Source: Candidatus Gottesmanbacteria bacterium GW2011_GWA2_43_14
GTDB lineage: Bacteria; Patescibacteriota; Microgenomatia; 2-02-FULL-39-11
DNA length: 64,000 bases
NCBI GenBank assembly: GCA_000999095.1
Contig: LCFP01000001.1
Span: 205,680 to 269,679, forward strand
Reading direction: 5' to 3'
This document shows positions 8,271 through 23,930 of the stretch, in pieces. A program made the position numbers and the translations under genes. The notes below the pieces were generated by a model. That model saw only the letters and a program-made list of their open reading frames with translations, was not told the origin of the DNA and did not search any database. The stretch's first letter is position 1; every line of letters begins with the position of its first letter.

Positions 8271-8288
8271 ATAACTATCTACGATTCT

Positions 8289-8495
8289 TCAGGAAACTGG
8301 AGACTTTTTATAATCCACTCGAATGCATACATCTCTGAAACAAAGAATCATAAGTCTGAGAATCATATTTACTTTTAACTGACTTGTAGCTGTAACTGCA
8401 TTTAAATTACAATCTTTTTTGAAATTAGCCGGTCTTAATATAAACCAATAAAAAGAAAATAGTATTAAACCGATCGTCAGTAAGAACCACATCAT
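8289..8495 (-). CDS. small hydrophobic protein, unknown function
   Basis: 68-aa ORF with one TM helix. Weak support. Confidence 0.25.
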   Translation of the reverse strand: MMWFLLTIGLILFSFYWFILRPANFKKDCNLNAVTATSQLKVNMILRLMILCFRDVCIRVDYKKSPVS

Positions 8496-8516
8496 AATTT
8501 GATTATAATACGAATC

Positions 8517-9032: not shown

Positions 9033-9043
9033 GTATTCATGAG

Positions 9044-9697: not shown

Positions 9698-9826
9698 TTA
9701 ATAACAACATAATCTTGATTTAAGAAATAAATATTTCATATAAAATTACCTTTACAATCGGACAACACAATATGATCAAATTAATAAATTTAGTAATAGA
9801 TTATTTACTGGAGTACAATACGGATT

Positions 9827-10432
9827 ATGTATAGCCTATATAAAATATGTACTATTTTATTAACTGCCTCTTTGGCAGTTTTTTTATACTTTTCGCCAGT
9901 TGAAGCAAAACAAGGGTGTTGTTCTAGTCATGGGGGAGTTAATTGTGATGCTGGAGCGCAATCTAATGGTCTAGTAATCTGTAATGATGGCTGGAGGGGA
10001 TCTTCTTGTTTATATTCAGAAATGGTAATGTGTGGTGGTTCATCGAGTAATTCTATAAATATTGCACCTATAAAAGATCAACCAATTCAAATATTACCTT
10101 CATCAACTCCGACTATTAAGAGAATTTATCCAACCTGGACACCAAAGCCCCAACCTACCTTAATCCCTTCTGCAACTTTAACTCCTGATTCAACAAGTAC
10201 TCCATATCCAACATATACTCCTTACCCTACTTATACACCTGTTCAGATGATCTCAGAATATCCTAAACCTTCAGGTTCTATACAGGGTGTTTCAACAGAT
10301 TCTAATACAGCTTCAGGAGATTTTTTTATCGGTTTACTGCTTGTAGGGCTGGCCTGGATTTTTAGAGGTAAAATTAAATGGATATTGAGCTCTCAAGGGA
10401 AATCTGATCAAGAATTACCTCCACAAAAATAG
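9827..10432 (+). CDS. Cys-rich secreted surface protein with Pro/Thr/Tyr linker and C-terminal TM anchor
   Basis: Signal peptide, then a CCSSHGGVNCDAG...C...C...C module. The linker contains PYPTYTPYPTYTP. The C-terminus is hydrophobic (FFIGLLLVGLAWIF). Confidence 0.55.
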   Translation: MYSLYKICTILLTASLAVFLYFSPVEAKQGCCSSHGGVNCDAGAQSNGLVICNDGWRGSSCLYSEMVMCGGSSSNSINIAPIKDQPIQILPSSTPTIKRIYPTWTPKPQPTLIPSATLTPDSTSTPYPTYTPYPTYTPVQMISEYPKPSGSIQGVSTDSNTASGDFFIGLLLVGLAWIFRGKIKWILSSQGKSDQELPPQK

Positions 10433-10655
10433 CGCCCAGTAACTTTTTAAAGTCGTGAGCGGTCTAATTGGAATCAAAAAGCATTTTCGCACATTCCTAC
10501 ATACTATTAACAAATTAATATTTTTTAAATTCGCATACTATATTTAAATATCAGTGTGATACATTTATAGCTTATTGTTACAACATATTTCACATGATAT
10601 TATTCAGGCAAATTTTTATACCTATAGTATTTTTAACATTAACAATTTCATTTAT

Positions 10656-10943
10656 ATGAAAATGAAAAAATATGCATTTATTTTCCTCTTTGTAATATTT
10701 GCTTCATTAATTAAGCCTCAAAATACTTTTGCATATGGTGGTGGTGGTCTTCCTGGATTACCTCCACCTCCTAAACTTAAACTTGTTTGTAATTATGAAG
10801 CTAGAATCATTAGACTAGTTTTCAATCGGACATTCACAATTTTAATACCAAAATGTCATGTCGAAGTTATTAAAGTAAATAATGATGAATTTAAAAATAG
10901 ATGGAATGATTTCATTAAGCGTGTAAGAAATGGTAATAGTTAA
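10656..10943 (+). CDS. small secreted protein, unknown function
   Basis: Signal peptide MKMKKYAFIFLFVIFASLIKPQNTFA, then GGGGLPGLPPPP. I chose the start at the internal ATG (10656). Confidence 0.4.
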   Translation: MKMKKYAFIFLFVIFASLIKPQNTFAYGGGGLPGLPPPPKLKLVCNYEARIIRLVFNRTFTILIPKCHVEVIKVNNDEFKNRWNDFIKRVRNGNS

Positions 10944-10948
10944 TATGT

Positions 10949-12571
10949 ATGGATTTAAACTCTCAAAACGAAGAAAAATATCTATATATTCATAAAACTC
11001 CCACTTGGAAAGTCCGTATACTATATTTTTTTGGGATTATCTCTTGGTTATTTGTAATTTATAGCTATGCTGGTTTGATAGGCATTGATCCTTTCTTTAC
11101 TTGGTATTTTTTACCAATTCTTACCGTTCTATCTTTATATTATCTAATAAGTTGGAGTATTAATGCTTTTTATAAACAATTTAATTTATATAATCATCAG
11201 AGATTAATAAAAACCTATTGGGCATATCATCGAGAGCCATTAGTTGATATATTTCTTCCAATATGTGGTGAAGATATTGAAGTATTAAGGAATACTTGGT
11301 GGCATGTTTTTAATATTTCTTATAAAAACAAAAAAATATATGTACTTGATGATTCTTCGGAAGAGTGTGAAGAGCATCAACAATTAGCAAATTTATTTGG
11401 CTTTAATTATTTTAGTCGTCCCAATAAGGGAGAAAATAAAAAAGCAGGAAATTTAAAATATGCTTATGAACGAACTAATGGAGAATTTATTGCTATATTT
11501 GATGCTGATTTTGCTCCACATAAAGATTTTCTAATTGAAGCTTTACCTTATACAAATAATTATAATGTGGGAATAGTACAGACTCCACAATATTTTGAAA
11601 CGAACGAGAAATTATACAAATCTTCATCACTTGCCTATGCGGCTGCATATCAAGAAGAATTCTTTTATCGTATAATTCAAGTTGCAAGAAACAGATTTGA
11701 TGCTCCTATATGTTGTGGTTCAAATTCAATATTTAGACGAAGAGCACTTATGACAATAGGGGGATTTCGGCAAGTAACAGCAAGTGAAGATTCTCGGACT
11801 GGATTCGCACTACTTTGTAAGGGTTGGATTATCCGTTATATTCCTGTTATTTTAGCCACGGGTATGTGTCCAACTAATGTATATGCTTATTACCATCAGC
11901 AGCACCGTTGGTGTAGAGGACGTTCAGAACTCACTCTTTCTAGGGAATTTATATTTGCTCCTATATCGTTTATCAAAAAACTATGTTATACAAGTGGTTT
12001 TCTTATGTTTTTAATTAGACCATTAAAATTATTTATTTCGTTTCATCTATTTTGGATTTTATTTATATATAATGATACCATTTCTTTAAGTAATTCCTTC
12101 ATATTTTATCTATATTTACTATTTGTTTTTATTCTTGACCCCCTGTTTCATATAGCAAAATTTAAGAAAGAAAACTTTTTAGTAGCTATGATTAAGATTT
12201 ATTCAAGTACCCATGCGATTATTTCGGTTTTAATGAGAAAAACAGTAAGTTGGATACCAACGAATGCTAAACATAAGAAAGTTTCTCACGCTTTTATTCA
12301 AACAACAAATCTTGTTGGTCTTTATTTATTCTTGTATGTAACACTGATATTATTAGCCATTAGGACGGGTGATTTACACTTATTGAATTATGACTATTTT
12401 TCTATTCAGTTTTGGATATTCTGGAATATTTTACTTACAATTGTTTTATTTGTACAATTTTTAAATGTAATTAAAAGTATGAAATATAGTAAGAATGATA
12501 ATAGTTTTTCAAATCAATATAAACGAATTAATCTACTTCCAAAGTTAGATTTAGATATTGCCTCCTATTAA
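10949..12571 (+). CDS. family-2 processive beta-glycosyltransferase, cellulose-synthase (BcsA/CESA)-like catalytic membrane protein
   Basis: The D, DxD, ED, QxxRW quartet is present: VLDDSS, IFDADF, TASEDSRTGF, QQHRWCRG. TM helices flank the catalytic domain. Confidence 0.8.
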   Translation: MDLNSQNEEKYLYIHKTPTWKVRILYFFGIISWLFVIYSYAGLIGIDPFFTWYFLPILTVLSLYYLISWSINAFYKQFNLYNHQRLIKTYWAYHREPLVDIFLPICGEDIEVLRNTWWHVFNISYKNKKIYVLDDSSEECEEHQQLANLFGFNYFSRPNKGENKKAGNLKYAYERTNGEFIAIFDADFAPHKDFLIEALPYTNNYNVGIVQTPQYFETNEKLYKSSSLAYAAAYQEEFFYRIIQVARNRFDAPICCGSNSIFRRRALMTIGGFRQVTASEDSRTGFALLCKGWIIRYIPVILATGMCPTNVYAYYHQQHRWCRGRSELTLSREFIFAPISFIKKLCYTSGFLMFLIRPLKLFISFHLFWILFIYNDTISLSNSFIFYLYLLFVFILDPLFHIAKFKKENFLVAMIKIYSSTHAIISVLMRKTVSWIPTNAKHKKVSHAFIQTTNLVGLYLFLYVTLILLAIRTGDLHLLNYDYFSIQFWIFWNILLTIVLFVQFLNVIKSMKYSKNDNSFSNQYKRINLLPKLDLDIASY

Positions 12572-12618
12572 TTTTGTACACATTTAAATAATAGGTATTT
12601 TCAGTATAATATCTACAA

Positions 12619-12993
12619 CAATACAAGCAAATATTTCTCGTATTAGCTTCAATTCTTCAGCAAAATCAATATAGAGCTCCAACTCAAACATTCAAACCTC
12701 AACCAACAAAACATATTCCTCCCTCAACAAGAATTCCTCCCATCGAAGAACCACTTCCCACTTATACACCTTTCCCAACTTATACCCCATATCCATCATA
12801 TACACCTGAACCAACTTCTCAACTTAAAACAATATCCCCAAAACCAACCGGTGAAATAAAAGGGGTCTCTACTAATGCTTCTACATATTTTGAAAGGGAA
12901 ATGTCGGGTTGTGTTCAAACCATCCTTACAGTTATGGTGGAACATGACATTTTCAAACACCTCCTTCATATAAAGATAACTACGAACTCGTAA
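12619..12993 (+). pseudogene. remnant (C-terminal-like fragment) of a surface protein paralogous to 9827..10432. No start codon.
   Basis: The in-frame translation PLPTYTPFPTYTPYPSYTPEPTSQLKTISPKPTGEIKGVSTNAS parallels TPYPTYTPYPTYTPVQMISEYPKPSGSIQGVSTDSN of the intact gene. It lacks a start codon and the TM anchor. Confidence 0.4.
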
Positions 12994-13169
12994 TTTTCTT
13001 TGTTCTCCTACTACTGTATCTATAGATTTTTGCATTATTGCTCGTTTTACTGGAAATTTCTTACCTTCTTCGTAAGGTTAATCCATATTTACTTATACTC
13101 AATTTTAAAATAATACACGTATTATCATTAGACGTTAGAAATGACTTTGTTTTTGGTATAATCCGGATA

Positions 13170-13493
13170 ATGAGGAATAATCTTCGGCAGTTACGACTAG
13201 AATATCACATGCTTCAGGATCACTTAGGGAAAAAAGTAGATCTCACAAGACAATCAATTATATCTATAGAAAAAGGAAAGACTGCTCCTTCACTTAAGAC
13301 CGCCTTTAAAATAGCCCAATTTTTTAATAGAAAAGTTGAGGATATCTTTTTAATAGATAAGGGTATTAAGTCCAGAGGAACGAAGCAAAAAAAAACCACT
13401 TATACAGTAACTATAACTAGTGATTCTCCAATTGAGATAGTAAAAGTCTCACGAAACAGTGGCCATAATAAACACCCATATAAGAATCGGTAG
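13170..13493 (+). CDS. XRE-family helix-turn-helix transcriptional regulator
   Basis: LRQLRLEYHMLQDHLGKKVDLTRQSIISIEKGKTAPSLKTAFKIAQFF is a classic HTH_XRE. I chose the internal ATG as the start. Confidence 0.65.
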   Translation: MRNNLRQLRLEYHMLQDHLGKKVDLTRQSIISIEKGKTAPSLKTAFKIAQFFNRKVEDIFLIDKGIKSRGTKQKKTTYTVTITSDSPIEIVKVSRNSGHNKHPYKNR

Positions 13494-13586
13494 GTGTCTT
13501 TAAAAAGTAAAAAGGCTGAACTCAAATAATGTTATATTAACCTCGGGAACTAGTGATAATCATTAGTTATTGCAGTGAATTCAGAA

Positions 13587-13952
13587 TTACGTTATTTCCC
13601 CATTTGAATCCTCTTTTAAAGTAATCCATAATATTGCCATTCCAGCATCCGGGTCGTTTGTAATATCATTTTGTGTTTTAATATAAATTTCCTTTAATTT
13701 TTCAGCTACCTTAGGTTTATCAATATATTTGAATTGTCCAATATATTGCTTTCCTTTATGGGCGTTTATACTCCCATTACACCAGATGCTATTGAATCCA
13801 CAAGGCGGCCGTTGAGATTCTTCAAATGATTTATCTTTATATACGACTAAATTGATCATGTATTCATACGTAGTATGTTTCATATTGATATCTAATTTTT
13901 CCTCTATTTTTGTAATTCTTCCTTTACTGGTCATGTATTTTCTCCTCAACAA
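13587..13952 (-). CDS. hypothetical protein
   Basis: 121-aa ORF, no recognisable motif. Confidence 0.3.
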   Translation of the reverse strand: MLRRKYMTSKGRITKIEEKLDINMKHTTYEYMINLVVYKDKSFEESQRPPCGFNSIWCNGSINAHKGKQYIGQFKYIDKPKVAEKLKEIYIKTQNDITNDPDAGMAILWITLKEDSNGEIT

Positions 13953-14063
13953 TTTTTTCTATCTTTTCCAATCTATCTTCAATTTCAGATTTTTCATGAG
14001 CGTCAGGAAAGCAACGAATTAGGAAACCAATCGAAATGTAACGAATAGTCTCTTTTACTTTTT

Positions 14064-14759
14064 TTACGGGGAATTTTTGACGGCGGTCACAATCAGGCGC
14101 TTGCTGTCGGCATAGCCTGAACAGGTATAGAGGGTAAGAATGGAACTGTCAGTCGGCCCGATAACTTCCGTTTGGCTGGGTAAAACTTCCTTTATTTCCG
14201 CAACGGTGTAGGAATACCAGGCGTCAGCTGTCAGAACCAGGACGCTTTCTCCGGTCTTAATCTCTTTTAAAGGCAGAAACAATCCCTGCCTGGCATGAGC
14301 GAAAATAACCGTGTTGCCGGTCTCATCAGGATAAGCTGATCCTAAACCGAAACCGGCACTGTCGGGGAAAACTTCCCAGAAGCCGCTGACAATCTTTGCC
14401 TCTTTGACCGGCAGATTGATATTCAGTGAAGGAATGACAATCCTGTTCGGACTCTGCTGCGCTTTGGCAGTGGCTTTCTTCTCCTCCAAAAATTTCTCAT
14501 CTATCTTGACCGGCTCGCTGGCAAAGGATACGGATATCAGTTCGCCGCTTTTTTCATCAAGGATAGGGGCTGTCTTTTTCAGCGACTGCTGGTTTAAGTA
14601 AATGGAGGCCAGTACAAAAAATAAGCCTGATGCTAAAAGCACCAGTCTTATCTTTTTTGTCCTGTCAGCAAGGATCGACTTTAACGTCGGTTTCTTTTGC
14701 CTATAAGGTTGTTTGCGACGTCGGTGTTTAGTTTTGACTTGGCGTACAGCAGCAGGCAT
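14064..14759 (-). CDS. sortase (class A-like cysteine transpeptidase), membrane-anchored
   Basis: N-terminal TM helix. Catalytic His in NTVIFAHAR, TLYTCSG (TLxTC Cys motif), Arg in RLIVTAV. Confidence 0.75.
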   Translation of the reverse strand: MPAAVRQVKTKHRRRKQPYRQKKPTLKSILADRTKKIRLVLLASGLFFVLASIYLNQQSLKKTAPILDEKSGELISVSFASEPVKIDEKFLEEKKATAKAQQSPNRIVIPSLNINLPVKEAKIVSGFWEVFPDSAGFGLGSAYPDETGNTVIFAHARQGLFLPLKEIKTGESVLVLTADAWYSYTVAEIKEVLPSQTEVIGPTDSSILTLYTCSGYADSKRLIVTAVKNSP

Positions 14760-15235
14760 AAGATTCCTCCCAAAAGCATTATATCAGATGCCCCCACTTC
14801 TTCTCCGGCCGTTTCCGACAATCCGGAAACCGCGGGTCCTTCCGATAGACCGCCTATGCCTCCGCCTTCTCCGTTTCCTCCGCCCCCGCTTACATCACTG
14901 TTATCTACATCAGGTGTCCAGCCGCAGTAAGGTCCCGAGTATGATTTACCGGCTGCGCACGGATCATCCTCATCATTGCCGCCATTTCCTCCATTGTCAG
15001 AAGGTGTAACTTCCGGTCCTCCGACGGGCGGAGAAGTCGGTGAGACTTTACTGGTTGGTGAAGGATTATATTGAGGTGGTAAAGTAGGCAAAAACCTGTC
15101 TTCGTTAGGTTGTGTCGGCCTGGTTGTCGGCCTCTCCCACCAATCCGCGTTAACCGAACGGTTGAGAATAAAACCGAAGCTTAAAATCAGGATTATAATT
15201 AAGATTTTTTTGCCCATACTTTCACCTCCTTTCAA
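14681..15235 (-). CDS. small secreted Pro/Gly-rich protein with C-terminal sorting-signal-like tail (LSETAG + hydrophobic + KSK...KRNRR)
   Basis: Signal peptide, then a P/S/T-rich then G-rich region. The C-terminus has motif-hydrophobic-basic architecture. Strong RBS AAGGAGGTGAAAGT upstream of the ATG. The 3' end overlaps the sortase start. Confidence 0.5.
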   Translation of the reverse strand: MKGGESMGKKILIIILILSFGFILNRSVNADWWERPTTRPTQPNEDRFLPTLPPQYNPSPTSKVSPTSPPVGGPEVTPSDNGGNGGNDEDDPCAAGKSYSGPYCGWTPDVDNSDVSGGGGNGEGGGIGGLSEGPAVSGLSETAGEEVGASDIMLLGGILCLLLYAKSKLNTDVANNLIGKRNRR

Positions 15236-17580
15236 AGAATTACTTCTAAAATATTGTTAAGATAAACCGTCAAATCGATATTGACTTTTTTCCTTCTTCT
15301 CCAGTAAAGCATAAACAAAGCCAGCGGCAGGACGGCCAGCCAGCTGCTGGTGACCCTGAGTGAAACGCCTCCCAAAAGGATACCCGGGAATGTTGCCTGG
15401 GTGGCTTTGGCGAAATTATTTGACAGGAAAAGGCCTCTTCTTAAAACTCTTGCCTCTGAATCCGCAGTCGTACCTGTCGGAGAAGGAGTTGCCGTCACAT
15501 AATTTCTCAATACATATGTCCTGTACCTCTGGTAATTGACATTATTGACAGCCGCAACATACTCCTCAGGGTAATAGCTCTCGCCGCCGGATGAGGCAGG
15601 ATATTCATAATAATAACCCTGGTTTTGGACATAGGGTGTATAGTCAAAGTCTGTCGTCTGGTCTACTGTAATGTCCAAATCCGGTAAAGGCTGGATGGTC
15701 GGCAAAGGAGACAAAGTCGGCAGGGCATCGGGGACTCCTCCCTGGTTATAGCCGTTATTCGTTTGTTCTGTACTGTCGCCATATCCGGTTGGAATGACAT
15801 TGCCCAGGAAATCACCGATAACATTCACCAAAAGGACGACGATTTTTTTGGCTGTGACATTGGTATTGGCCAGATTGACCAAATTCAGGGCAGTGTCGGC
15901 ATCTCCGGTTGAAATGACACCGGCGCCGGTATTGTATGTAGCCTGATTGTTGCCGGTATCGGCACTGGCCGTAATATTATTGGTGATGTCTGCGTTATTG
16001 TTATTCTCAACTGTAGTCGACTCATTGGTCGATATAGTAGAAACATCAGTCGAATAAGGTCCTGTAACATCATTTCCGGCATAAACAGAGAAGCTTTGTT
16101 CTCCGGCTCCGGCTGTTTCCGTGGCGACAGACAGTCCGTTGGAAGCGGAACCGACTCCCGGCAGTTGTCCGAGGATATGCCCAACCCATCGTCCTGCTTC
16201 ATTGACAATGACCATCCAAACCGTATCTTCAACGCTGGTAACATTCTGATTGGCCACCGTCGAATTAGCAACAGCAGCATCGGCATTGCCTGATACCACC
16301 ATGCCGCCTCCGGTATTGACCGAAGCGGTATTGTTGCCGGTATTGGCGGAAACATCCAAACTGCTTACGATGTCGGCATTGTTTATATTGGTGAACTCGG
16401 CCGTAGTATTGGAGGTATAGGAAGAATAATTGTCAGACATCGGCCCGGTGGCCTCATTGCCGACATAAACTGTTTCTCCCTGGATACTTCCTCCACTGCC
16501 GCCGTTTTCTTGAGGCAGGATAATGTCGCCTAAAAGGGTACCGAAAATATTGACGACACCGAAAAGCCATTGGGCTACATTCAGATTGGTGTTGACCATA
16601 TTGATAATGTTGCCCACAGCTGTTGCATCCCCTGTTTCAATCAGTCCGTTGCCGGTATTGAAGGAGGCTGTATTATTGCCGGTCAAGGCAGCTAAATTTA
16701 TGTCATTTTCAATGGTGGCGTCATTGCCGTTGTTTTCCTTTACCGTAAATGAAGATTGTGAATCAGCAATATTTGAAGACATGGGGCCTGTAACCGAATT
16801 TTGGGAAACGGTCTGCGAAGCATTGACAAATGAATTTAATAGATCACCGTCTGCAAAATTTAAAACAAGATCACCAAAATATGTTCCATAGATATCCATC
16901 ACGGAAAAACCGCCGACTCCGGAAATATTGCTGTTTAATTTATTCAAAAGATTAAGAGTTGAAGTGGTATCGCCTGTGAAAACCTGTCCGTCCAAAGTAT
17001 TTAAGTTGGCGTAATTGAAGCCGGATGAGGTAATAGTGTCAATTTTATTCTGCATTTCAGCCAGATTCTGATTCATAACTTCTAACTTCTTATCTATTAT
17101 TTCCTGGCCGTAATTATTAGAATAAGCACCTGTATTGGTATTTAACGGATCATTGTAACTGCCTGCCTGATAATCGGTACTGCCTAAACTACTGCCTGTG
17201 CCGTCATTGCCTGACTGACTGCCTGATGGCGACTCGGTTCCGGTAGGAGTCACAGTCGCTGCGGAAGCTGAAGGATCACCGGTCGGCAAAGGCTCATATG
17301 TCGGCTGGGGTGATGGATACACTCCGCCGGAGGAAGGACCTGAAGGTGCGCTGGGAGCGGTCGGAGCGCTGGGTCCGGTATAGGTTGAAGGCCCGGAAGG
17401 AGCAGACGGGGCTGTCGGAGCGCTGGGACCGCTCGGAGCCGAACCAGGGCCTTCTGGAGCAGACGGAGCGGACGGCGCAGACGGACCCGCCTGTGCTGAC
17501 ACCACAAACGGGGAAAAAATATTCCCCATTAAAACTGCCGTAACTAATATTAAACTGATCCTTTTTTTAAATTTTTCCAC
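15232..17580 (-). CDS. large cell-surface protein: signal peptide, PSAP-type low-complexity region, three copies of an N/T/G-rich repeat of about 100 aa, C-terminal TM anchor with RRRKK tail
   Basis: GPSAPSAPSAPEGPGSAPSGPSAPTAPSAPSGPS. Repeats containing TGP[MY]S.N...NNADI...A.TGNN.A..NTG.G.I.TGDA. C-terminal VLPLALFMLYWRRRKK. Confidence 0.7.
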   Translation of the reverse strand: MEKFKKRISLILVTAVLMGNIFSPFVVSAQAGPSAPSAPSAPEGPGSAPSGPSAPTAPSAPSGPSTYTGPSAPTAPSAPSGPSSGGVYPSPQPTYEPLPTGDPSASAATVTPTGTESPSGSQSGNDGTGSSLGSTDYQAGSYNDPLNTNTGAYSNNYGQEIIDKKLEVMNQNLAEMQNKIDTITSSGFNYANLNTLDGQVFTGDTTSTLNLLNKLNSNISGVGGFSVMDIYGTYFGDLVLNFADGDLLNSFVNASQTVSQNSVTGPMSSNIADSQSSFTVKENNGNDATIENDINLAALTGNNTASFNTGNGLIETGDATAVGNIINMVNTNLNVAQWLFGVVNIFGTLLGDIILPQENGGSGGSIQGETVYVGNEATGPMSDNYSSYTSNTTAEFTNINNADIVSSLDVSANTGNNTASVNTGGGMVVSGNADAAVANSTVANQNVTSVEDTVWMVIVNEAGRWVGHILGQLPGVGSASNGLSVATETAGAGEQSFSVYAGNDVTGPYSTDVSTISTNESTTVENNNNADITNNITASADTGNNQATYNTGAGVISTGDADTALNLVNLANTNVTAKKIVVLLVNVIGDFLGNVIPTGYGDSTEQTNNGYNQGGVPDALPTLSPLPTIQPLPDLDITVDQTTDFDYTPYVQNQGYYYEYPASSGGESYYPEEYVAAVNNVNYQRYRTYVLRNYVTATPSPTGTTADSEARVLRRGLFLSNNFAKATQATFPGILLGGVSLRVTSSWLAVLPLALFMLYWRRRKKVNIDLTVYLNNILEVIL
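17270..17480 (-). repeat. imperfect tandem 9/18-bp repeats encoding (P/G)SAPS(A/G)P collagen-like low-complexity region
   Basis: gctgggagcggtcggagcgctgggtccggt...gctgtcggagcgctgggaccgctcggagcc. Possible site for length variation. Confidence 0.5.
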
Positions 17581-17675
17581 TCTGTATTTCTATAATTTTT
17601 AAATCTTCCTTGCTGGTGGAGATCCGTATCTTCTAGGATCGAATCTCCACCAGTTGAAAGGAAGTCCTCATGTTA

Positions 17676-18923
17676 TTAAGGAAGAATCTCAGTCAAGGTA
17701 TCATTCATGTGAACCAAGACCTGTTGCAACAGCTCGGCAAATCCTGCCTCAACGCTGCCACCACCAGTATTGGTGTTGGACAAGTTGTATCCGGTATCTG
17801 AGTATGAATCAACGTTGTTGAGCACGCCTAGATTATCCGGGTTGCACTCGCCTTCGTGATCTTCACTTAAATTGTCGGAACCACCATCCCTACCAAACCA
17901 CCTTGACCATAAAGGTTTATCTATTCTGTCTGCATTGTGAGATTCACACTTGTTGTTCCAATTATCAACTGTAACTTCGCGTGTATTCTCGATCCAAACA
18001 GAGGGATCTTTACCTGATCCATCCGGTCCGGTAACAGAATTACTTCCGTAATTGTTGAAACCGCCCAAGGCCATAGCGATTCTGGTAGTGTTGATGTTGC
18101 CTTCAGTATTTACACCAACTCCGGCTGCGGCATCTCCGGTGAATATATCTCCGCCCAAAGTATTAGTTTTGGCTTCGTTATAACCGGTATTGGCACCTGC
18201 ATCGACGTAATTCTTTACTTGCAAATCATTAACATTGGTCACATTTGCCAAGAATCTGTTATAGATTGCAACGTCATTGTTTGAGAATGGACCTGTGGTC
18301 AAGTTCTCGGCAACATTGGTTCCGGTACCTCCGGCTGATCCTCGGATGTCATTGTAGTTGTCATTAACATGTGTGTTAACGAGCAAACCTAACCAGGCAT
18401 CTCCGGTATCAACTGAAGCGGGTCCGGTATTTGTGTTAGCTTTGTTGTATCCAGTATTGGAATCCGCATCGACATTATTCTTTACGGTTGCAGTATTGCT
18501 GTTGTAAAGATTGATCCGCTGTTCATTCTCAATCCAAGCCGAATTATTGGAATAAGGCCCGGTGATGGAATTTTCACCGCGGTTACTGGCGGCTCCAAGA
18601 GCTGAAGTGATATTGGTGGTATTGATGTTGGCAACAGATGAAACGGTTGTATTATTGGTTGCATCTCCTGTTTTGATCGTACCGCCCAATGTATTCAGGC
18701 TGGCTTCGTTGTATCCGGTATTGCTGTTGGATGTTACGTAGTTTTTGATTTGAGCATCATTAACATTGTTAACGGTGATCACATCGGTGTTTTTAATGGT
18801 ACAAGTGTTATTGGAAAAAGGTCCGGTTGTACTATTTACACACTCATTGGTTGCGGCAATAGCCGGAACGAAAGCTGCTGCCAATAAGGCAGCGCTACCA
18901 ACTAAAGTTGCTATTTTTTTCAT
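17676..18923 (-). CDS. secreted protein with four copies of the same N/T/G-rich repeat family
   Basis: Signal peptide MKKIATLVGSAALLAAAFVPAIAA. Repeats: TGP[FY]SNN...VxNYV...SNTGYNEA.TNT.GG.I.TGDA recur four times. Strong RBS GGAGGTGAAAAT. Confidence 0.7.
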   Translation of the reverse strand: MKKIATLVGSAALLAAAFVPAIAATNECVNSTTGPFSNNTCTIKNTDVITVNNVNDAQIKNYVTSNSNTGYNEASLNTLGGTIKTGDATNNTTVSSVANINTTNITSALGAASNRGENSITGPYSNNSAWIENEQRINLYNSNTATVKNNVDADSNTGYNKANTNTGPASVDTGDAWLGLLVNTHVNDNYNDIRGSAGGTGTNVAENLTTGPFSNNDVAIYNRFLANVTNVNDLQVKNYVDAGANTGYNEAKTNTLGGDIFTGDAAAGVGVNTEGNINTTRIAMALGGFNNYGSNSVTGPDGSGKDPSVWIENTREVTVDNWNNKCESHNADRIDKPLWSRWFGRDGGSDNLSEDHEGECNPDNLGVLNNVDSYSDTGYNLSNTNTGGGSVEAGFAELLQQVLVHMNDTLTEILP

Positions 18924-19021
18924 TTTATATTTTCACCTCCTTCCGTTGTATAGTCATAGATAGCCAGGTTCTGCCTAGAACAGCCCGGTTTTCTATTTTT
19001 ATAAAGCCAATATTCAATCCA

Positions 19022-19063
19022 ATAAAAAAGAGGTAATCCCCGATTTAAATCGTGGATTACCTC
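19022..19063 (-). terminator. rho-independent terminator of the 19117..19380 gene
   Basis: GAGGTAATCC / GGATTACCTC 10-bp stem with CGATTTAAATCG-containing loop, followed on the minus strand by TTTTTTATT. Confidence 0.6.
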
Positions 19064-19116
19064 CGTTTGCGGTCGGTATCTTTAATCCCGACTAAGTCGG
19101 GACTAGATATTAAATT

Positions 19117-19380
19117 TTACAGATCCTTGATGCTGTGACTTGTTTTCTTGATATTTCTTTCAGTTATTTGCGTGACCTTGAAATCCTGCACGTAAATCTC
19201 CACGGACCCCCATCCGCGTACATTTTTTATGGCGTTTTTAAGTTCGTCCAGTAAATTTTTACCGATTTTCTTTGTTGAATAGTCGACCATTTTTTTCAGT
19301 TTGCTGTCAGAGCAGATAGCGTTTCTTCGGGGCAAGTTTTGGGGCAGCCAAAGATCGGGGCAGATCAGGTCAAACTCCAA
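19117..19380 (-). CDS. small protein, DUF2292 (YezD)-like
   Basis: GWGSVEIYVQDFKVTQITERN resembles the GSV.I.I.DG.V.QIE motif of YezD-family proteins. Followed by a rho-independent terminator. Confidence 0.35.
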   Translation of the reverse strand: MEFDLICPDLWLPQNLPRRNAICSDSKLKKMVDYSTKKIGKNLLDELKNAIKNVRGWGSVEIYVQDFKVTQITERNIKKTSHSIKDL

Positions 19381-19409
19381 AGCATCATATATAAACTCAT
19401 TTATTTATG

Positions 19410-20018
19410 TCAAGAGGGAAAAGTTATATCGACCTCTTCCTTTTTCCCGTCGATTACCCCAACCAGCAGCTTAAATTTCTTCTCTGTTTGTGAAATAACA
19501 AAGCCGATCCGGTCAACCCTGGTGGAAATGGCAGCTACCGGCACCAGGTTATTATGAAGGTCAGGCGCGTATTTTGTCTCCGCATTATCGCCGATTGTCA
19601 GTCGGACCAAATCTCCGGGCAATATATTCAGGGGAGTGGTCGAATCATTGGTCAAATCGAGATTAACGATCAGAAACAGTTTGTCATTTCTGGCCGTGAA
19701 AGTTTTATCCTGAACCATAACCTGGTTTGTTTTTTCCACTCTGCTTATCTTAAATTTTATTTTGTCGCTGACTTCCTTGCCCTGGTTGTTGATTCCGGGA
19801 AACTCAAAACTGCGGGCAACATCGACGGTCTGAGTGGCTGCTTTGGCCGATGAGGCGGATTTTTTCAGGGAAAAGAAATTAAAAAAGCCGATAACGGCCA
19901 GGGTCAGGGCAATTGCAATAAACAGTTTTTTCTTCTTTTGAATTTTTTCCGTTAGTTTTTTCTTCCAGCCGTTTTTAAACATATTCATGTTCATAAATAT
20001 ATAGATTAAAAAAACCAA
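19410..20018 (-). CDS. membrane-anchored hypothetical protein (single N-terminal TM, beta-rich ectodomain)
   Basis: KKKKLFIAIALTLAVIGFFNFF TM segment. No recognised catalytic motif. Confidence 0.45.
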   Translation of the reverse strand: MVFLIYIFMNMNMFKNGWKKKLTEKIQKKKKLFIAIALTLAVIGFFNFFSLKKSASSAKAATQTVDVARSFEFPGINNQGKEVSDKIKFKISRVEKTNQVMVQDKTFTARNDKLFLIVNLDLTNDSTTPLNILPGDLVRLTIGDNAETKYAPDLHNNLVPVAAISTRVDRIGFVISQTEKKFKLLVGVIDGKKEEVDITFPS

Positions 20019-20115
20019 AGCTTTTCAGGGCTTTGGGCAGTGTGATCAATATACATTCTGGCAAATTATTTGTCAAGAATCTTTTTGATGTGACGCTGTT
20101 TCCCGATTTTTATCC

Positions 20116-20148
20116 ACAAAAAAGAACCCCGACTTAATCGGGGTTCTT
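20116..20148 (-). terminator. rho-independent terminator of the 20180..20779 gene
   Basis: GAACCCCGA / TCGGGGTTC stem, loop CTTAA, then a T6 run on the minus strand. Confidence 0.6.
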
Positions 20149-20179
20149 TCGTAACATCCAACAGTAATACCGGTAAAAA

Positions 20180-20779
20180 TTAAGGTCCTACTGTAATGCT
20201 TGATGTATTGGCAACAGTCGTTACTATTGTCGTTGAGCTGGCGTTGCCGGTAGAAATTCCACCATCAACTTTAGTATTGTAACTGGTTACATTTTCACCT
20301 GAATTAGCACTCGATGAAATATTATTAACGACTCTGGCATCCTGTCTATTGTTAACTCTTATTTCCTGAGTATCAACTACAACTGCAATATTTTTAGATT
20401 TATAACCAGTCTGGTCAATTTTGACTGTCGTATCTTCATCACAACCACAACCGTTAACTTCTATAGTTGAATCATTTACCTGAGTCAAAACATCAGTAGT
20501 AGAAGTTGCATCACCAGTCCCGACATCGCCTAATACTTTTGTATTATATTCAACTTTATTTTTGCCCGAATTCACATTTGACGTCACGTTATTAGTGACA
20601 GTGGCGTTCTGCGGGTTACTGACTGTTGTTCTTCTTAATTTGACGATGGCACCTATATTCCAGGATTCGGCACCGGTATCAATAATCCTAACAGTATTGG
20701 CAGCAAATGACGGAGAAGCGCTTGCCAAAAATATGGCGGTACCGAAAGCTGCACTGATTATTTTTTTCATATACTTCAC
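20180..20779 (-). CDS. secreted protein with two copies of the N/T/G-rich repeat (shortest family member)
   Basis: Signal peptide. ATVTNNVTSNVNSGKNKVEYNTKVLGDVGTGDATSTT and ARVVNNISSSANSGENVTSYNTKVDGGISTGNASSTT. RBS GGAGGTGAAGTAT before the ATG. Terminator hairpin downstream. Confidence 0.65.
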   Translation of the reverse strand: MKYMKKIISAAFGTAIFLASASPSFAANTVRIIDTGAESWNIGAIVKLRRTTVSNPQNATVTNNVTSNVNSGKNKVEYNTKVLGDVGTGDATSTTDVLTQVNDSTIEVNGCGCDEDTTVKIDQTGYKSKNIAVVVDTQEIRVNNRQDARVVNNISSSANSGENVTSYNTKVDGGISTGNASSTTIVTTVANTSSITVGP

Positions 20780-21067
20780 CTCCTTCCGGGCAGATAAGTT
20801 ATCCCGATTAAATCGGGATTATGCATTTCTAAGCCTCATTTCATTTCAGCAAGAACTGCATAAAAAAACACCCGTCGGTCTTCCCGCTTTGGGGAAAACA
20901 AACGAGCGCATAATAACGGCAGTTGGCAGTTGGCAGTTCATCAGATAACAAAAAAAGCAATCCAAAAAATGGATTGCTTCCGAGTGCGGTCAGCAAATAT
21001 CTGTTATATCTACGTTAGATTAACTGCCGGCCTTTTGTCAAGTCCCTTGTGCTTATATTGCGCCGCT

Positions 21068-21076
21068 GGTATACTC
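21068..21076 (+). promoter_or_regulatory. candidate extended -10 element TGGTATACT upstream of the 21095 membrane-protein gene
   Basis: Same 9-mer as upstream of prfB. No obvious SD between it and the ATG. Confidence 0.25.
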
Positions 21077-21094
21077 TCTGGGATAATTAGAGCC

Positions 21095-22525
21095 ATGCAG
21101 CAACTTAAATCAATTGCCGAAGTTTTTCTTAAAAACTGCCTGCCGTACCTGGTTGTCTTTCTGATGGCCCTGTACCCGTCAAGCGATACGGACCTGGGCT
21201 GGCATCTGAAGTACGGCGAATACCTGGTGCAAAACGGACGGATATTAAGGGAAAATATCCACTCCCTGGAAATGACTGACTATCAATGGATCAACAGTTC
21301 CTGGGCCATAGACGGAATTACCTACCTTATATATAACAGCTGGGGCTTTCTTGGCCTGACCCTGGCAGGAGCCGTGACCGTTACCCTGATCCTTTTTTTT
21401 GTCGGCAAAGCCGCCGGCATGACTTTCTGGGAGAAAGCGGTCTTTTTCCCACTGCTGACGGTTATTGAAGAACCCCTCTTCCAGGTATCATTCCGCGGAC
21501 AGCTCTTAAGCCTTTTGTTTGTCTCCATGCTTATTTATCTGCTAAGCCGCTACAACAGGATAAAAGACAGGCGGATTCTATGGGTAATTCCTCTTTTCAT
21601 CCTCTGGTCCAATCTGCACGGCAGCTTTCTTCTTGGTATCGGTATTATTTTCATATACAGCCTGGTCGCATTAATTAAGTATAAGCGACCGGATAAAACC
21701 TTATCCCTCGTCGGACTGGCAGCTGCGGCGTCCTCTTTGATCAATCCCTTCGGCTGGCAAATCTATGCGGAAACCTGGAAACATTTCGGCAACCCGTTTC
21801 AGAAATATATCATCGAATGGGTGCCGTTCCCGGTTTTTTCAGAGGTCTGGTGGACGCTGGTTTTTTGGGGCCTGTTTTTAATCGCCAATGTCTGGTATCT
21901 CCATCGCAAGAAAAAACTTTCTTCCTCCTGGGAAATTCTTATTATCTCTGCCGTTTTGTTTCTGCTATCCAGTTGGATGAAGCGCTATGCCTGGACAATG
22001 TACCTTGTATCTGCCCCTTTGGCCGTTCATCTGGTCAAAAGCATCAAGCCGACCGACCGGGTTCTGAAAATACTTTTGCCGTCCCTTATCCTCTTCTTTT
22101 TCTATCTCTCAGCTATCTTCAGCCTGCCGTCCAAACGACTGACGGCCATGAATTGGCAAAGATATTGCAGCGAGTATCTGTTTTGCTCTGACGAATCGGC
22201 CGAATATCTGCTAGGTCTAAATTCCCGGGAAAAACGGCTGACATTCTATAATTGGGGAGGCTGGCTGATCTGGAATTATCCGGACCTCAAGCCATCCATT
22301 GACGGCCGGATGCATTTATGGCGTGATGAAAACAATTACAGCGCCTTCGGGAAATACTTTTTTCTGGAACAGAATGTCACCGATATCGACAAATCCGAAT
22401 ACGACCTGGTTTTTATAACGGTCAATAAGCCGCTTTACCTGAGACTTGCCGCACTGGCTGAAAGCGGCAAATGGCAAATGCTCTATAAAGACGAGAGAGC
22501 GGGGATTTTTGTTAGAAATAAGTAA
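21095..22525 (+). CDS. large polytopic membrane protein, GT-C-like (putative glycosyltransferase/polymerase), unknown specificity
   Basis: At least 10 predicted TM helices. Conserved-looking N-terminal SSDTDLGWHLKYGEY. I chose the start at MQQLKS (21095) rather than the upstream ORF-track start. Confidence 0.5.
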   Translation: MQQLKSIAEVFLKNCLPYLVVFLMALYPSSDTDLGWHLKYGEYLVQNGRILRENIHSLEMTDYQWINSSWAIDGITYLIYNSWGFLGLTLAGAVTVTLILFFVGKAAGMTFWEKAVFFPLLTVIEEPLFQVSFRGQLLSLLFVSMLIYLLSRYNRIKDRRILWVIPLFILWSNLHGSFLLGIGIIFIYSLVALIKYKRPDKTLSLVGLAAAASSLINPFGWQIYAETWKHFGNPFQKYIIEWVPFPVFSEVWWTLVFWGLFLIANVWYLHRKKKLSSSWEILIISAVLFLLSSWMKRYAWTMYLVSAPLAVHLVKSIKPTDRVLKILLPSLILFFFYLSAIFSLPSKRLTAMNWQRYCSEYLFCSDESAEYLLGLNSREKRLTFYNWGGWLIWNYPDLKPSIDGRMHLWRDENNYSAFGKYFFLEQNVTDIDKSEYDLVFITVNKPLYLRLAALAESGKWQMLYKDERAGIFVRNK

Positions 22526-22553: not shown

Positions 22554-23930
22554 TCACTGACAGTACTGCGGGCGGAAACGGCACCACCAGGGCGTCGGAG
22601 TCGGATTTGCTGTAACAGGTGTCGGAGTAGGGGTAAAGGAAGGAAGAGGCGTCGGGGAAGGAGTAGATGTAGAAGAAGGAATAAGAGTCGGAGCGGGGGT
22701 AAAGGTGGGAGTCGGTATTTCAGTCGGAGTGCTACTTGGCAGGTAAGCTGTAACTTCCTTCAAACTGTTTAAGGCATTAATTCTACCGTAAGTCCAATAA
22801 TTGCCTGTTTGGGCAATTTTATCCGCGTTCTGATAAATATTATCAACAATCTCTGTATGGGTTAAATTTCCGGCTGACTTAAGCAAAGCGGCTAGTCCTG
22901 AAACAAAGGGCGTAGCCATGGATGTTCCTGAAAGATAAGCGTAGTTATATATTTTTAGCTTATTTGTATGGTTGGGAGCCGTTGAGTATATTGAAACGCC
23001 CGGTGCCGCAATATCTACCCAATGACCGTAATTGGAAAATGGGGCTTTTTGATCGTTACTGTCTGTGGCGGCCACGGCCACGGCATTTGAGTAATAAGCC
23101 GGATATGAGGGAGAGCTGGAATTGGAGTTGCCGGCGGCGGCCACAACAACAACTCCTTTATTCCAGGCATAATTGACGGCATCCTCTAAAATCTGTGATG
23201 AAGATACGCCGCCGAGACTTAAATTGATGACTGAAGCGTCGTTATCGGCAGCCCAGATAAGGCAGTTGGCAATCCAGGAATAATAGCCGGAGCCGTTATC
23301 GCCCAATCCTTTGGCATTTATCAGTCTGACGTTATAACCTGTTCCGGCAACTCCTTTACTATTATTGGTCGCCGCCGCAGCGATACCGGCCACATGCGTA
23401 CCGTGTCCGTACCGGTCATCAACTGTCGAACTATTACTGCAGTTTCTGTTTTTAGCAATTTTGCCGATCAAATCAGTATGGTTCTGATCTATACCGGTAT
23501 CAAGTACGGCCAGCAAAACATCCGGAGTTCCATGGCTGTAATTCCAGGCTGATTCGCCCGGATCGCTTGCCCTGATTTTGGACAAGCCCCACTGTTTGGA
23601 GGTATAGGGATCATTGGTTGTTTCTAATGCAAAAGCCAGGTTATCTTTTTCGGCATAAAGTACTAAATTATGTTTATTTAAAACATCCAGTAATTTGTTA
23701 AAAAGAGGCTGAGGAACCTCAAAAACTTCAGCGTTTAAATTATCAATTTTTTCAGGCAAAAGAGTACCGATCATCCGACGGATTTTAAATTTATCAGTAT
23801 TACCCGCCTGAGGTGTAAAACGGACTATTAAGCGTTCTTTTTGGGGATTATTTTGCGCAAAAGCTGTTGATGGTAAAAAAAACAGGACTATTAATGAAAC
23901 TATGGCAAATAAAGACTTGAGCAGGGCCAC
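22554..23930 (-). CDS. secreted subtilisin-like serine protease (S8) with N-terminal propeptide-like domain and C-terminal Pro/Thr-rich tail
   Basis: Catalytic D/H/S blocks: VLDTGID, HGTHVAGIAAA, GTSMATPFVSGLAALL. Signal peptide MALLKSLFAIVSLIVLFFLPSTAFA. Confidence 0.85.
   Translation of the reverse strand: MALLKSLFAIVSLIVLFFLPSTAFAQNNPQKERLIVRFTPQAGNTDKFKIRRMIGTLLPEKIDNLNAEVFEVPQPLFNKLLDVLNKHNLVLYAEKDNLAFALETTNDPYTSKQWGLSKIRASDPGESAWNYSHGTPDVLLAVLDTGIDQNHTDLIGKIAKNRNCSNSSTVDDRYGHGTHVAGIAAAATNNSKGVAGTGYNVRLINAKGLGDNGSGYYSWIANCLIWAADNDASVINLSLGGVSSSQILEDAVNYAWNKGVVVVAAAGNSNSSSPSYPAYYSNAVAVAATDSNDQKAPFSNYGHWVDIAAPGVSIYSTAPNHTNKLKIYNYAYLSGTSMATPFVSGLAALLKSAGNLTHTEIVDNIYQNADKIAQTGNYWTYGRINALNSLKEVTAYLPSSTPTEIPTPTFTPAPTLIPSSTSTPSPTPLPSFTPTPTPVTANPTPTPWWCRFRPQYCQ

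What the first reader, a model, noticed from the sequence alone, without database searches (positions are those of the whole stretch)
14064..20779. Sortase locus with three paralogous secreted proteins built from an unrecognised ~95-aa N/T/G-rich repeat (2, 3 and 4 copies): candidate surface-fibre/adhesin system
Three genes share a long repeat with the pattern TGP[FYM]S.N...(I/V).N.V....N...A.[ST]NTGYN.A.TNT.GG.I.TGDA (17676..18923 with 4 copies, 15232..17580 with 3 copies, 20180..20779 with 2 copies). I cannot assign it to any named family. The Asn/Thr/Gly periodicity suggests a beta-solenoid or beta-helix. The largest member also has a collagen-like PSAPSAP tract and a C-terminal TM + RRRKK anchor. 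Between it and the sortase gene lies a small Pro/Gly-rich protein ending in LSETAG + hydrophobic + basic tail. That looks like a sorting signal and resembles the pilin-plus-dedicated-sortase arrangement. All four structural genes carry the same unusually strong RBS (AAGGAGGTGAAnnnATG), which suggests high expression. The locus therefore looks like an abundant sortase-associated surface structure (pilus/fibre or S-layer-like coat) made from an undescribed repeat fold.
Basis: partly seen in the sequence, partly recalled or inferred. Interest (0 to 1): 0.7.

Follow-up and report, generated by a model that had tools for sequence, protein, structure and literature searches.

The report
Anchored beta-solenoid surface protein cassette
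An ultra-small groundwater bacterium (Candidatus Gottesmanbacteria) carries a conserved operon of secreted and cell-anchored proteins built from an unnamed 88-residue repeat, next to a sortase; it is a good candidate for the still unidentified surface coat or attachment fibre of these bacteria.

Summary
Three minus-strand genes share a roughly 88-aa Asn/Thr/Gly-rich repeat. The largest has four copies, not three. The identical strong ribosome-binding site precedes three of the four structural genes, not all four.

The cassette is conserved in nine independent loci:
- a DUF4352-like membrane protein
- a DUF2292 protein
- a free 4-repeat protein
- a membrane-anchored 4-repeat paralogue
- a sorting-signal protein
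- a sortase

A free and an anchored paralogue sit side by side wherever both flanks could be read. A conserved RNA hairpin follows the free-subunit gene. Only one gene per cassette carries a sorting signal, so this is not a sortase-polymerised pilus.

Best reading: an abundant free subunit is held on the cell by anchored paralogues, the same logic as chaplins or curli. Whether it forms a fibre or a lattice is unresolved.

The parts
14064..14759 (-). Sortase: N-terminal basic tail plus TM segment, then the catalytic domain with His (FAHAR), Cys (LTLYTC) and Arg (KRLIV). Its 5' end overlaps the preceding gene by 79 nt.
   Evidence: Pfam Sortase E 2.4e-21. TIGR01076 scores 46.9 against a cut-off of 39.35, and no class-specific model reaches its cut-off. 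A sortase occupies the same position in nine independent loci.
14681..15217 (-). Small secreted Pro/Gly-rich protein. It has a signal peptide, a mature N-terminus DWWERP, a conserved CxxGKSYxGPYCGW loop, and a sorting signal (LSETAG, then TM, then a basic tail). It is the likely sortase substrate.
   Evidence: Homologues in six Gottesmanbacteria species keep L-S-x-T-[AGS] plus TM plus basic residues. In L004 and L008 the same operon slot holds a 3-repeat protein ending LPITG or LPVTG.
15232..17580 (-). 782-aa membrane-anchored paralogue. Order of parts: signal peptide; disordered Pro/Ser/Ala-rich N-terminal tract; four long-type repeats (DNA 16897-17154, 16546-16812, 16201-16470, 15817-16086), three of which are followed by a W..VN.FG..G..P extension; a disordered Tyr/Pro-rich stalk; a conserved juxtamembrane motif; a TM helix (about 15292-15351); RRRKK; and a short tail. 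GTG start, no Shine-Dalgarno site.
17605..17664 (-). Intercistronic RNA hairpin between the stop of the free-subunit gene and the start of the anchored-paralogue gene. It is probably an attenuating terminator or a transcript-stabilising element.
   Evidence: dG -34.9 kcal/mol, z -6.3. An equivalent hairpin is present in seven other cassette loci. The consensus stem has 18 pairs, 8 of them with compensatory double changes.
17676..18923 (-). 415-aa free (unanchored) secreted protein with four contiguous repeats (DNA 18585-18848, 18318-18584, 18054-18317, 17679-18053). Two conserved Cys pairs: C28/C41 and C326/C360. Inferred to be the major subunit.
18933..18942 (-). Extended Shine-Dalgarno site AAGGAGGTGA. 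Identical copies lie at 15222-15231 and 20776-20785.
   Evidence: Three occurrences in 64 kb against 0.05 expected, all in front of structural genes.
19024..19064 (-). Terminator-like hairpin with a T-run, downstream of the DUF2292 gene and upstream of the free-subunit gene.
   Evidence: Read directly from the sequence.
19085..19103 (.). Palindrome TCCCGA-N4/5-TCGGGA. Further copies lie at 20126-20144 and 20801-20819. All three are intergenic and upstream of cassette genes.
   Evidence: Seven strand-wise matches against 0.28 expected. Found at the same relative positions in L001 and L012.
19117..19290 (-). DUF2292 (YezD-like) small protein, conserved immediately upstream of the free-subunit gene.
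   Evidence: Pfam PF10055, E 3.9e-5, above its cut-off. Present in all cassette loci at 55-88% identity.
19410..20018 (-). N-terminally membrane-anchored DUF4352-like protein, syntenic with the cassette.
   Evidence: Pfam PF11611, E 1.2e-4, just below its cut-off. Homologues sit at the same position in nine loci.
20180..20770 (-). Secreted 2-repeat paralogue (repeats at DNA 20432-20698 and 20183-20431), with no anchor.
   Evidence: Two-repeat paralogues of about 200 aa also occur in L001, L008, L011, L012, L013 and L015.
20930..22525 (+). 531-aa polytopic membrane protein of unknown family, syntenic with the cassette. Its role is unknown, and its membership of the system is inferred from synteny only.
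   Evidence: No Pfam, NCBIfam or PDB match. Syntenic homologues in five further species.

Best explanation
The locus encodes a cell-envelope surface assembly typical of Microgenomates (Candidate Phyla Radiation). It is built from paralogous beta-solenoid proteins that share an 88-residue repeat.

Proposed mechanism:
1. All the structural proteins are exported by Sec.
2. The 415-aa free protein is made in the largest amount. It has a strong ribosome-binding site, and a conserved hairpin after its stop codon lowers or separates expression of the downstream genes.
3. The 782-aa paralogue is fixed in the membrane by its C-terminal helix. A disordered stalk of about 130 residues lifts its four repeat modules through the wall.
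4. The sortase cleaves the LSxT[A/G] signal of the small protein and links it to peptidoglycan. In other lineages the substrate is a 3-repeat LPxTG paralogue.
5. The free subunit is retained on the cell by non-covalent repeat-to-repeat association with the anchored paralogues. This is the logic of long and short chaplins, CsgB/CsgA and TapA/TasA.

Shown: the gene anatomy, the repeat family, the solenoid-like models, the synteny, the sorting signals and the hairpin.

Inferred: relative abundance, the association between paralogues, and surface location. Whether the product is a fibre or a two-dimensional coat is not resolved.
For: - **Repeat family.** The repeat is real and specific to these three ORFs in the window.
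- **Models.** They are all-beta, and the best matches are beta-helices, beta-rolls, adhesins, an S-layer protein and curli.
- **Export.** Signal peptides are visible on all four structural proteins.
- **Free plus anchored pairs.** A free paralogue lies next to an anchored one in 12 of 12 independent loci where both could be read. These are the window, L001, L004, L006, L008, L009, L012, L013, L015, L016, L017 and L018.
- **Two size classes.** Of 376 family proteins, 229 lack a C-terminal anchor (median 412 aa) and 147 have a C-terminal TM segment (median about 770 aa).
- **Sortase linkage.** A sortase lies directly downstream in nine independent loci, with a sorting-signal protein between it and the anchored paralogue in eight of them.
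- **Direct link to the repeat.** In L004 and L008 that sorting-signal protein itself carries three repeats.
- **Expression signals.** The 10-mer Shine-Dalgarno site is unique to three structural genes. The hairpin after the free-subunit gene is conserved, with compensatory changes.
- **Co-domains in relatives.** DUF11, dockerin and DUF7507, all typical of cell-surface proteins.
Against: - There is no expression, proteomic or imaging data, so abundance and surface location are inferred.
- No interaction between paralogues was tested.
- The free protein has conserved Cys pairs near both ends. These could be caps that prevent end-to-end stacking.
- In the model of the 782-aa protein the repeats are separate modules joined by low-confidence linkers. 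That suits a beads-on-a-string adhesin as well as it suits a template.
- In Parcubacteria-type loci no sortase lies within 10 kb, so the sortase is not obligatory for the family.
- The sortase probably serves other substrates too.
Confidence: 0.45

Rival explanations
1. The repeat proteins are independent monomeric adhesins or host-binding proteins. They duplicated locally, each acts alone, and no higher-order structure forms. The sortase sits here only because it is co-transcribed with one of its several substrates.
For: - In the large paralogue the repeats are modelled as separate modules on flexible linkers.
- Relatives carry dockerin or DUF11 modules, as expected of modular adhesins.
- A second, unrelated sortase substrate lies elsewhere in the window.
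- CPR bacteria are thought to live attached to hosts (PMC11665869).
Against: - A free, unanchored paralogue of constant size (about 400 aa) always lies next to an anchored one. An adhesin that is not attached to the cell needs a partner to act.
- The gene order is conserved across lineages. A conserved hairpin separates the first gene from the rest, which suggests fixed stoichiometry.
Confidence: 0.25
2. The 415-aa protein is the S-layer protein of these cells and forms a two-dimensional lattice. The membrane-anchored paralogue and the wall-linked small protein serve as its stalk and anchor.
For: - From my own knowledge, ultra-small groundwater CPR cells show an S-layer by cryo-EM (Luef et al. 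2015, Nat Commun).
- S-layer proteins are reported to be prevalent in Patescibacteria, and beta-helix S-layer proteins are a major bacterial class (bioRxiv 10.1101/2024.05.28.596244).
- The strong ribosome-binding site and the hairpin after the gene fit a very abundant product.
Against: - There is no SLH or other known S-layer anchoring domain.
- At 415 aa and rod-like, the protein is small for a lattice former.
- Similarity to RsaA is generic beta-helix similarity.
Confidence: 0.15
3. This is a sortase-assembled pilus. Repeat proteins are covalently polymerised by a pilus-specific sortase, and the small protein is the pilin or the base.
For: A sortase gene is tightly coupled to a sorting-signal protein and lies next to secreted paralogues.
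Against: - Only one gene per cassette has a sorting signal. The 415-aa, 782-aa and 2-repeat proteins have none.
- The class C sortase model scores 46.9 bits against a cut-off of 160.
- The small protein is mostly disordered Pro/Gly-rich sequence with no pilin-type Ig domains and no Pfam hit.
Confidence: 0.03

Closest known systems
Streptomyces chaplins (long ChpA-C with an LAxTG sorting signal, short secreted ChpD-H, class E sortases)
   Same: A paralogous family comes in secreted short or free forms and wall-anchored long forms. A sortase fixes the anchored members, and the free members are retained by self-association at a monoderm cell surface.
   Different: There is no sequence relation: no Pfam hit of any kind on the repeat. 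The repeat here is 88 aa with a predicted solenoid, not a 40-aa chaplin domain. The main anchored paralogue uses a TM helix, and the sortase substrate in this genome is a non-repeat protein. Amyloid formation is untested.
Curli (CsgA major subunit, CsgB nucleator) and Fap (FapC/FapB) functional amyloids
   Different: hhalign of the repeat profile against E. coli CsgA gives a probability of 0.1%, and there is no Curlin_rpt Pfam hit. No 19-23-residue sub-period was detected. Curli needs the outer-membrane CsgG/E/F machinery, whereas this organism is a Sec-plus-sortase monoderm.
LPXTG-anchored beta-solenoid adhesins such as the binding region of Lactobacillus reuteri serine-rich repeat protein (PDB 5ny0, 5nxk)
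   Different: SRRP is a single large protein with its own LPXTG signal and SecA2 export. Here the solenoid proteins of the locus lack LPXTG, and they occur as free-plus-anchored paralogue sets.
Caulobacter RsaA-type beta-helix S-layer proteins
   Different: RsaA is about 1,000 aa, binds Ca2+ through RTX motifs, is exported by a type I system and is anchored to LPS. None of these features is present here (no HemolysinCabind hit).
Bacillus TasA/TapA fibres
   Same: A secreted major fibre subunit together with a wall-associated accessory or anchor protein, encoded in one operon in a monoderm.
   Different: TasA belongs to Peptidase_M73 and assembles by donor-strand exchange. There is no similarity to the repeat. 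A Peptidase_M73 gene is merely a neighbour in one distant locus (L015).

Membership tests
Sortase (PF04203 / TIGR01076) | Sortase domain scoring above the curated cut-off, with catalytic His, the Cys of TLxTC, and Arg | tested here: met
   Pfam 76.2 bits against 26.6. TIGR01076 46.9 bits against 39.35. FAHAR, LTLYTC and KRLIV can be read in the sequence.
Class C (pilus-specific) sortase | Score above the class C model cut-off | tested here: not met
   NF033745 scores 46.9 bits against a cut-off of 160. Classes D, E and F are also all below their cut-offs.
Cell wall sorting signal (LPXTG type) | Pentapeptide motif, then a hydrophobic segment, then a basic tail, at the extreme C-terminus | tested here: met
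   The window has a variant motif: LSETAG, then IMLLGGILCLLLYA, then KSK...KRNRR. L-S-x-T-[AGS] is conserved in six species, and canonical LPITG or LPVTG holds the same operon slot in L004 and L008. Cleavage itself cannot be tested here.
Sortase-assembled pilus | Every pilin subunit carries its own sorting signal, and the major pilin has a pilin-motif Lys | tested here: not met
   The 415-aa, 782-aa and 2-repeat proteins have no sorting signal. The small protein has no pilin-like domain.
Curlin repeat / CsgA (PF07012) | Sequence match to the curlin repeat S-x5-Q-x-G-x-x-N-x-A-x3-Q with a 19-23-residue period | tested here: not met
   No Pfam hit. hhalign probability 0.1%. No 22-residue periodicity.
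Right-handed parallel beta-helix / beta-solenoid (structural class) | Stacked parallel beta-rungs that superpose on known beta-helices | tested here: inconclusive
RTX beta-roll (PF00353) | GGxGxDxUx nonapeptide repeats that bind Ca2+ | tested here: not met
   No Pfam hit. The conserved Asp/Asn at repeat position 62 is Asp in only 47% of 1,296 units.
Collagen-like protein | Uninterrupted Gly-X-Y triplets | tested here: not met
   The tract GPSAPSAPSAPEGPGSAPSGPSAPTAPSAP has no constant Gly register, and there is no Pfam Collagen hit on the window protein.
S-layer protein | Known anchoring module (SLH, CWB2 and the like) and the ability to form a 2D lattice | tested here: not met
   No SLH or other anchoring domain in the window proteins or in 51 relatives. 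Lattice formation cannot be tested with these tools.
Chaplin (PF03777) | Chaplin domain of about 40 aa with two Cys | tested here: not met
   No Pfam hit. The resemblance is in system logic only.

The most novel reading that the evidence does not exclude
This cassette encodes the principal surface structure of Microgenomates and many other CPR bacteria, namely the S-layer or the 'pili-like' attachment fibres seen by cryo-EM. It would be assembled by templated, non-covalent stacking of a free beta-solenoid subunit onto membrane- and wall-anchored paralogues. That would make it a monoderm, sortase-linked counterpart of curli or chaplins, built from a domain family that is not yet in any database.
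Probability: 0.2. Interest if true: 0.8.

Novelty: new variant of a known kind. Interest (0 to 1): 0.55.

Why it matters
CPR (Patescibacteria) bacteria make up a large share of bacterial diversity, and most are thought to live attached to other cells. The proteins that form their cell surface are largely unknown.

This finding defines a very large repeat family (3,825 clusters at 50% identity) that no curated family covers and that has so far been found only in CPR genomes. It also defines a conserved operon with a clear design rule: a free subunit, an anchored paralogue, a sorting-signal protein and a sortase.

That yields concrete, testable candidates for the coat or attachment fibres of these organisms, for example as targets for metaproteomics, cryo-ET, antibodies or heterologous assembly. 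It also supplies material for a new domain family entry. If the assembly model holds, it would extend the 'anchored nucleator plus free subunit' principle to another deep bacterial lineage.

Tried and rejected
- **Genome-collection scans.** The search for related loci with the unit alignment and with the 53-sequence alignment failed because no stretch was conserved enough. A closer alignment returned only six loci, so no systematic genome-wide co-occurrence test could be made.
- **Word-indexed search with the 88-aa unit profile.** It gave only five short hits. The exhaustive representative search was needed to see the family.
- **AFDB Foldseek.** Not available.
- **Foldseek against the PDB.** Nothing significant.
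- **Sequence-level links.** All negative: the PDB by single sequence and by profile, PHROGs, and CsgA by hhalign.
- **A 22-residue rung with an Asn ladder at positions 8, 30, 52 and 74.** Rejected. Autocorrelation shows no peak at 22, 44 or 66, only at 88-89.
- **Rfam scan of the locus.** Nothing credible.
- **Literature searches.** Queries on CPR with sortase, S-layer, solenoid or amyloid found no description of this repeat or cassette.
- **Other readings considered and rejected.** Collagen-like, RTX/Ca-binding and sortase-polymerised pilus (see the membership tests).
Full report
**Origin and gene map**

The 415-aa protein is 100% identical to a hypothetical protein of Candidatus Gottesmanbacteria bacterium GW2011_GWA2_4x. 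The window therefore comes from a member of the Microgenomates, within the Candidate Phyla Radiation (CPR).

All genes of the finding lie on the minus strand:

| Coordinates | Product |
|---|---|
| 14064-14759 | sortase |
| 14681-15235 (likely start ATG 15217) | small Pro/Gly-rich protein |
| 15232-17580 | 782-aa protein |
| 17676-18923 | 415-aa protein |
| 19117-19290 | DUF2292 protein |
| 19410-20018 | DUF4352-like membrane protein |
| 20180-20779 (likely start ATG 20770) | 2-repeat protein |

On the far side lie a 531-aa polytopic membrane protein (20930-22525, plus strand) and a subtilase (22554-23930).

Yes. Single repeat units taken from the 415-aa protein find the other copies, and the copies in the two other proteins, at 20-76 bits. 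An HMM built from nine units hits only these three ORFs among all six-frame ORFs of the window. Autocorrelation of the 415-aa protein peaks at lag 88-89 (z 6.6-8.2).

Four corrections apply.
- The 782-aa protein has four copies (aa 143-228, 257-345, 371-460, 499-588), not three.
- The fourth copy of the 415-aa protein is interrupted by a Cys-containing insertion.
- The 10-mer AAGGAGGTGA occurs exactly three times in 64 kb (0.05 expected). It precedes the small, the 415-aa and the 2-repeat genes. The 782-aa gene has a GTG start with no such site.
- The PSAPSAP tract has no Gly-X-Y register and is not collagen-like.

**What the repeat is**

No repeat protein matches Pfam, NCBIfam or PHROGs. Neither a single sequence nor the unit profile finds any PDB chain.

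An exhaustive profile search of 1.84 billion cluster representatives found 3,825 proteins at E<=1e-3, 2,279 at <=1e-10 and 451 at <=1e-30, with 2-10 repeats each. Fifty-one diverse members were scanned against Pfam. None matched on the repeat. The co-occurring domains were DUF11 (13 of 51), DUF7507, Dockerin_1 and DUF7927, all typical of cell-surface proteins.

Every member that carries an organism name is from the CPR. The names are Gottesman-, Curtiss-, Levy-, Woyke-, Ames-, Staskawicz- and Andersenbacteria and 'Parcubacteria group'.

A consensus built from 1,296 units reads:

N..TG[PA].S.N.A...(9)...V.N.N.A.[IV].N.[VI]...A.TG.N.A..NTG.G.[IV].TG[DN]A.....V.N..N.N

**Fold**

AlphaFold2 was run on the 415-aa protein with a 53-sequence alignment. 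It gave mean pLDDT 78 and pTM 0.67, and the model is all-beta. Foldseek against the PDB found nothing significant. The top, non-significant, hits were FapC and CsgA.

The 782-aa protein was modelled at mean pLDDT 62.
- Four repeat modules have block-mean pLDDT of about 85-97.
- The linkers between them fall below 50.
- The N-terminal Pro-rich region (23-149) and the stalk (602-670) are disordered.
- The C-terminus has a transmembrane helix.

The sequence family is new, but the fold class is not. A hypothesised 22-residue rung was not supported, and the repeat profile has no detectable relation to CsgA.

**Context and linkage to the sortase**

Contigs encoding homologues show one conserved gene order:

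DUF4352-like protein, DUF2292 protein, free 4-repeat protein (about 400 aa), C-terminally anchored 4-repeat protein (about 770 aa), sorting-signal protein, sortase.

This order holds in the window, in five other Gottesmanbacteria species (L001, L006, L009, L012, L013) and in two Levybacteria-like lineages (L004, L008). In L008 the sortase is an uncalled ORF at 13158-13625. An Andersenbacteria locus (L014) has an LAVTG-ending repeat protein close to a sortase gene on the opposite strand. That makes nine independent loci with a sortase. Four more distant loci (L015-L018) have none within 10 kb.

The gene in front of the sortase is always a sortase substrate.
- In six Gottesmanbacteria species it is the small protein. 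Its tail has the consensus VLGLSxT[AGS], then SD[IV][IM].L.G.LCLL.Y, then [KR]SK.
- In L004 and L008 it is a 375-aa protein with three copies of the repeat, ending LPITG or LPVTG followed by a TM segment and RLRSGR.

This ties the repeat family directly to sortase anchoring.

**Design rule**

A non-anchored paralogue lay next to an anchored one (TM helix or LPxTG-like signal) in all 12 independent loci where both flanks could be read. The other 147 have a C-terminal TM segment (median about 770 aa), and about 20 of these have a clear [LF]Px[TSA]G motif before it.

**Expression signals**

The free-subunit gene has the extended Shine-Dalgarno site. A strong hairpin follows its stop codon immediately (dG -34.9 kcal/mol, z -6.3). 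An equivalent hairpin is present in seven other cassette loci, including ones with unrelated stem sequences. The consensus stem has 18 pairs, 8 of which show compensatory double changes.

The downstream genes are tightly packed. The Shine-Dalgarno site of the small gene directly follows the stop codon of the 782-aa gene. The sortase ORF overlaps the small gene by 79 nt, and by 52 nt in L002 and L006.

This is the arrangement expected when the first gene product is needed in excess of the following ones. That reading is an inference, not a measurement.

**Why it is not a sortase pilus**

Only one gene per cassette has a sorting signal. The sortase reaches no class-specific cut-off (class C 46.9 bits, class E 53.3 bits, both against 160). 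A second substrate, a DUF11 protein ending VPETG followed by a TM segment and RKKSKKD, lies at 59188-59937. The enzyme therefore looks like a general anchoring sortase. According to Meheust et al. 2019, sortase is near-ubiquitous in Microgenomates and patchy elsewhere in the CPR (PMC6744442). That agrees with the distribution seen here.

**Most likely mechanism (confidence about 0.45)**

An abundant free beta-solenoid subunit is retained at the surface by repeat-to-repeat association with paralogues that are fixed to the cell. One paralogue is held by a C-terminal membrane helix on a stalk of about 130 residues. The other attachment goes through a sortase-linked partner.

The closest functional analogies are the long and short chaplins of Streptomyces, CsgB/CsgA, and TapA/TasA. 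None of them is related in sequence (see the membership tests).

The rivals are independent monomeric adhesins (0.25), a true S-layer lattice (0.15) and a sortase-polymerised pilus (0.03). Nothing here measures abundance, localisation or interaction, and the geometry (fibre or sheet) is open.

**Novelty and score**

I found no description of this repeat or cassette in the searchable literature. I rate it a new variant of a known kind. It is an unnamed, CPR-wide domain family of a familiar structural class, organised in a conserved free-plus-anchored-plus-sortase cassette.

Interest is 0.55. The finding is not mechanistically surprising, but it gives concrete candidates for the unknown surface structures of a very large, poorly understood bacterial radiation.

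Noticed in passing
window 19085-19103, 20126-20144, 20801-20819; L001 3540 and 9864; L012 9836: The palindrome TCCCGA-N4/5-TCGGGA occurs three times in intergenic DNA of the locus (7 strand-wise matches against 0.28 expected). It recurs at the same relative positions in two other Gottesmanbacteria: upstream of the 2-repeat gene, and between the DUF2292 and free-subunit genes. It could be an operator or a small RNA hairpin.
   Followed up: partly
window 17605-17664 (-); L002 11208-11270; L004 9228-9290; L006 1622-1684; L008 9276-9335; L009 2330-2388; L012 11144-11200; L013 11200-11262: A strong RNA hairpin directly after the stop codon of the free 4-repeat gene is conserved across species. Its stem sequences covary (8 of 18 pairs show compensatory double changes). 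No clear U-tract follows it in the window.
   Followed up: yes
window 19117-19290 (-): The DUF2292 (YezD-like) 57-aa protein is 55-88% identical across the cassette loci. That is more conserved than the structural proteins (53-69%), and the gene always sits immediately upstream of the free-subunit gene. Its role is unknown; it may be regulatory.
   Followed up: partly
window 20930-22525 (+): This 531-aa polytopic membrane protein is syntenic with the cassette in Gottesmanbacteria and in L004. It has no Pfam, NCBIfam or PDB sequence match.
   Followed up: partly
window about 8000-14000: A low-GC block (0.30-0.33, against about 0.45 elsewhere) lies between the sortase and a CAP-family gene (6483-7349). 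It carries a GT2 glycosyltransferase (10949-12571), an M23 peptidase (9044-9697) and an HTH_3 regulator (13038-13493). In L001 a 662-aa gene occupies this position instead, so the block is probably an insertion.
   Followed up: partly
window 59188-59937 (-): A second predicted sortase substrate: a 249-aa secreted DUF11-domain protein ending VPETG, then a TM segment, then RKKSKKD.
   Followed up: partly
L008 13158-13625 (+): A sortase ORF (own HMM, E 5.5e-35) was not called as a gene on the public contig. Without it, this locus would wrongly appear to lack a sortase.
   Followed up: yes
P0138, P0141, P0145, P0153, P0173, P0220 and P0276-P0285 (family members elsewhere): A subfamily of long (about 900-1,100 aa) repeat proteins ends in type I dockerin-like modules (GDLNGDGKVDDYDFSILMANWGK). 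Others carry DUF11/CLIPPER or DUF7507 domains. This suggests alternative ways of docking the same repeat to the cell surface.
   Followed up: no
window 22554-23930 and 6483-7349; L001, L015, L016: A secreted S8 subtilase and a CAP-family protein recur near repeat-protein genes, even in distant loci that lack a sortase. They may act in processing, or they may simply be part of a shared secretome island.
   Followed up: no
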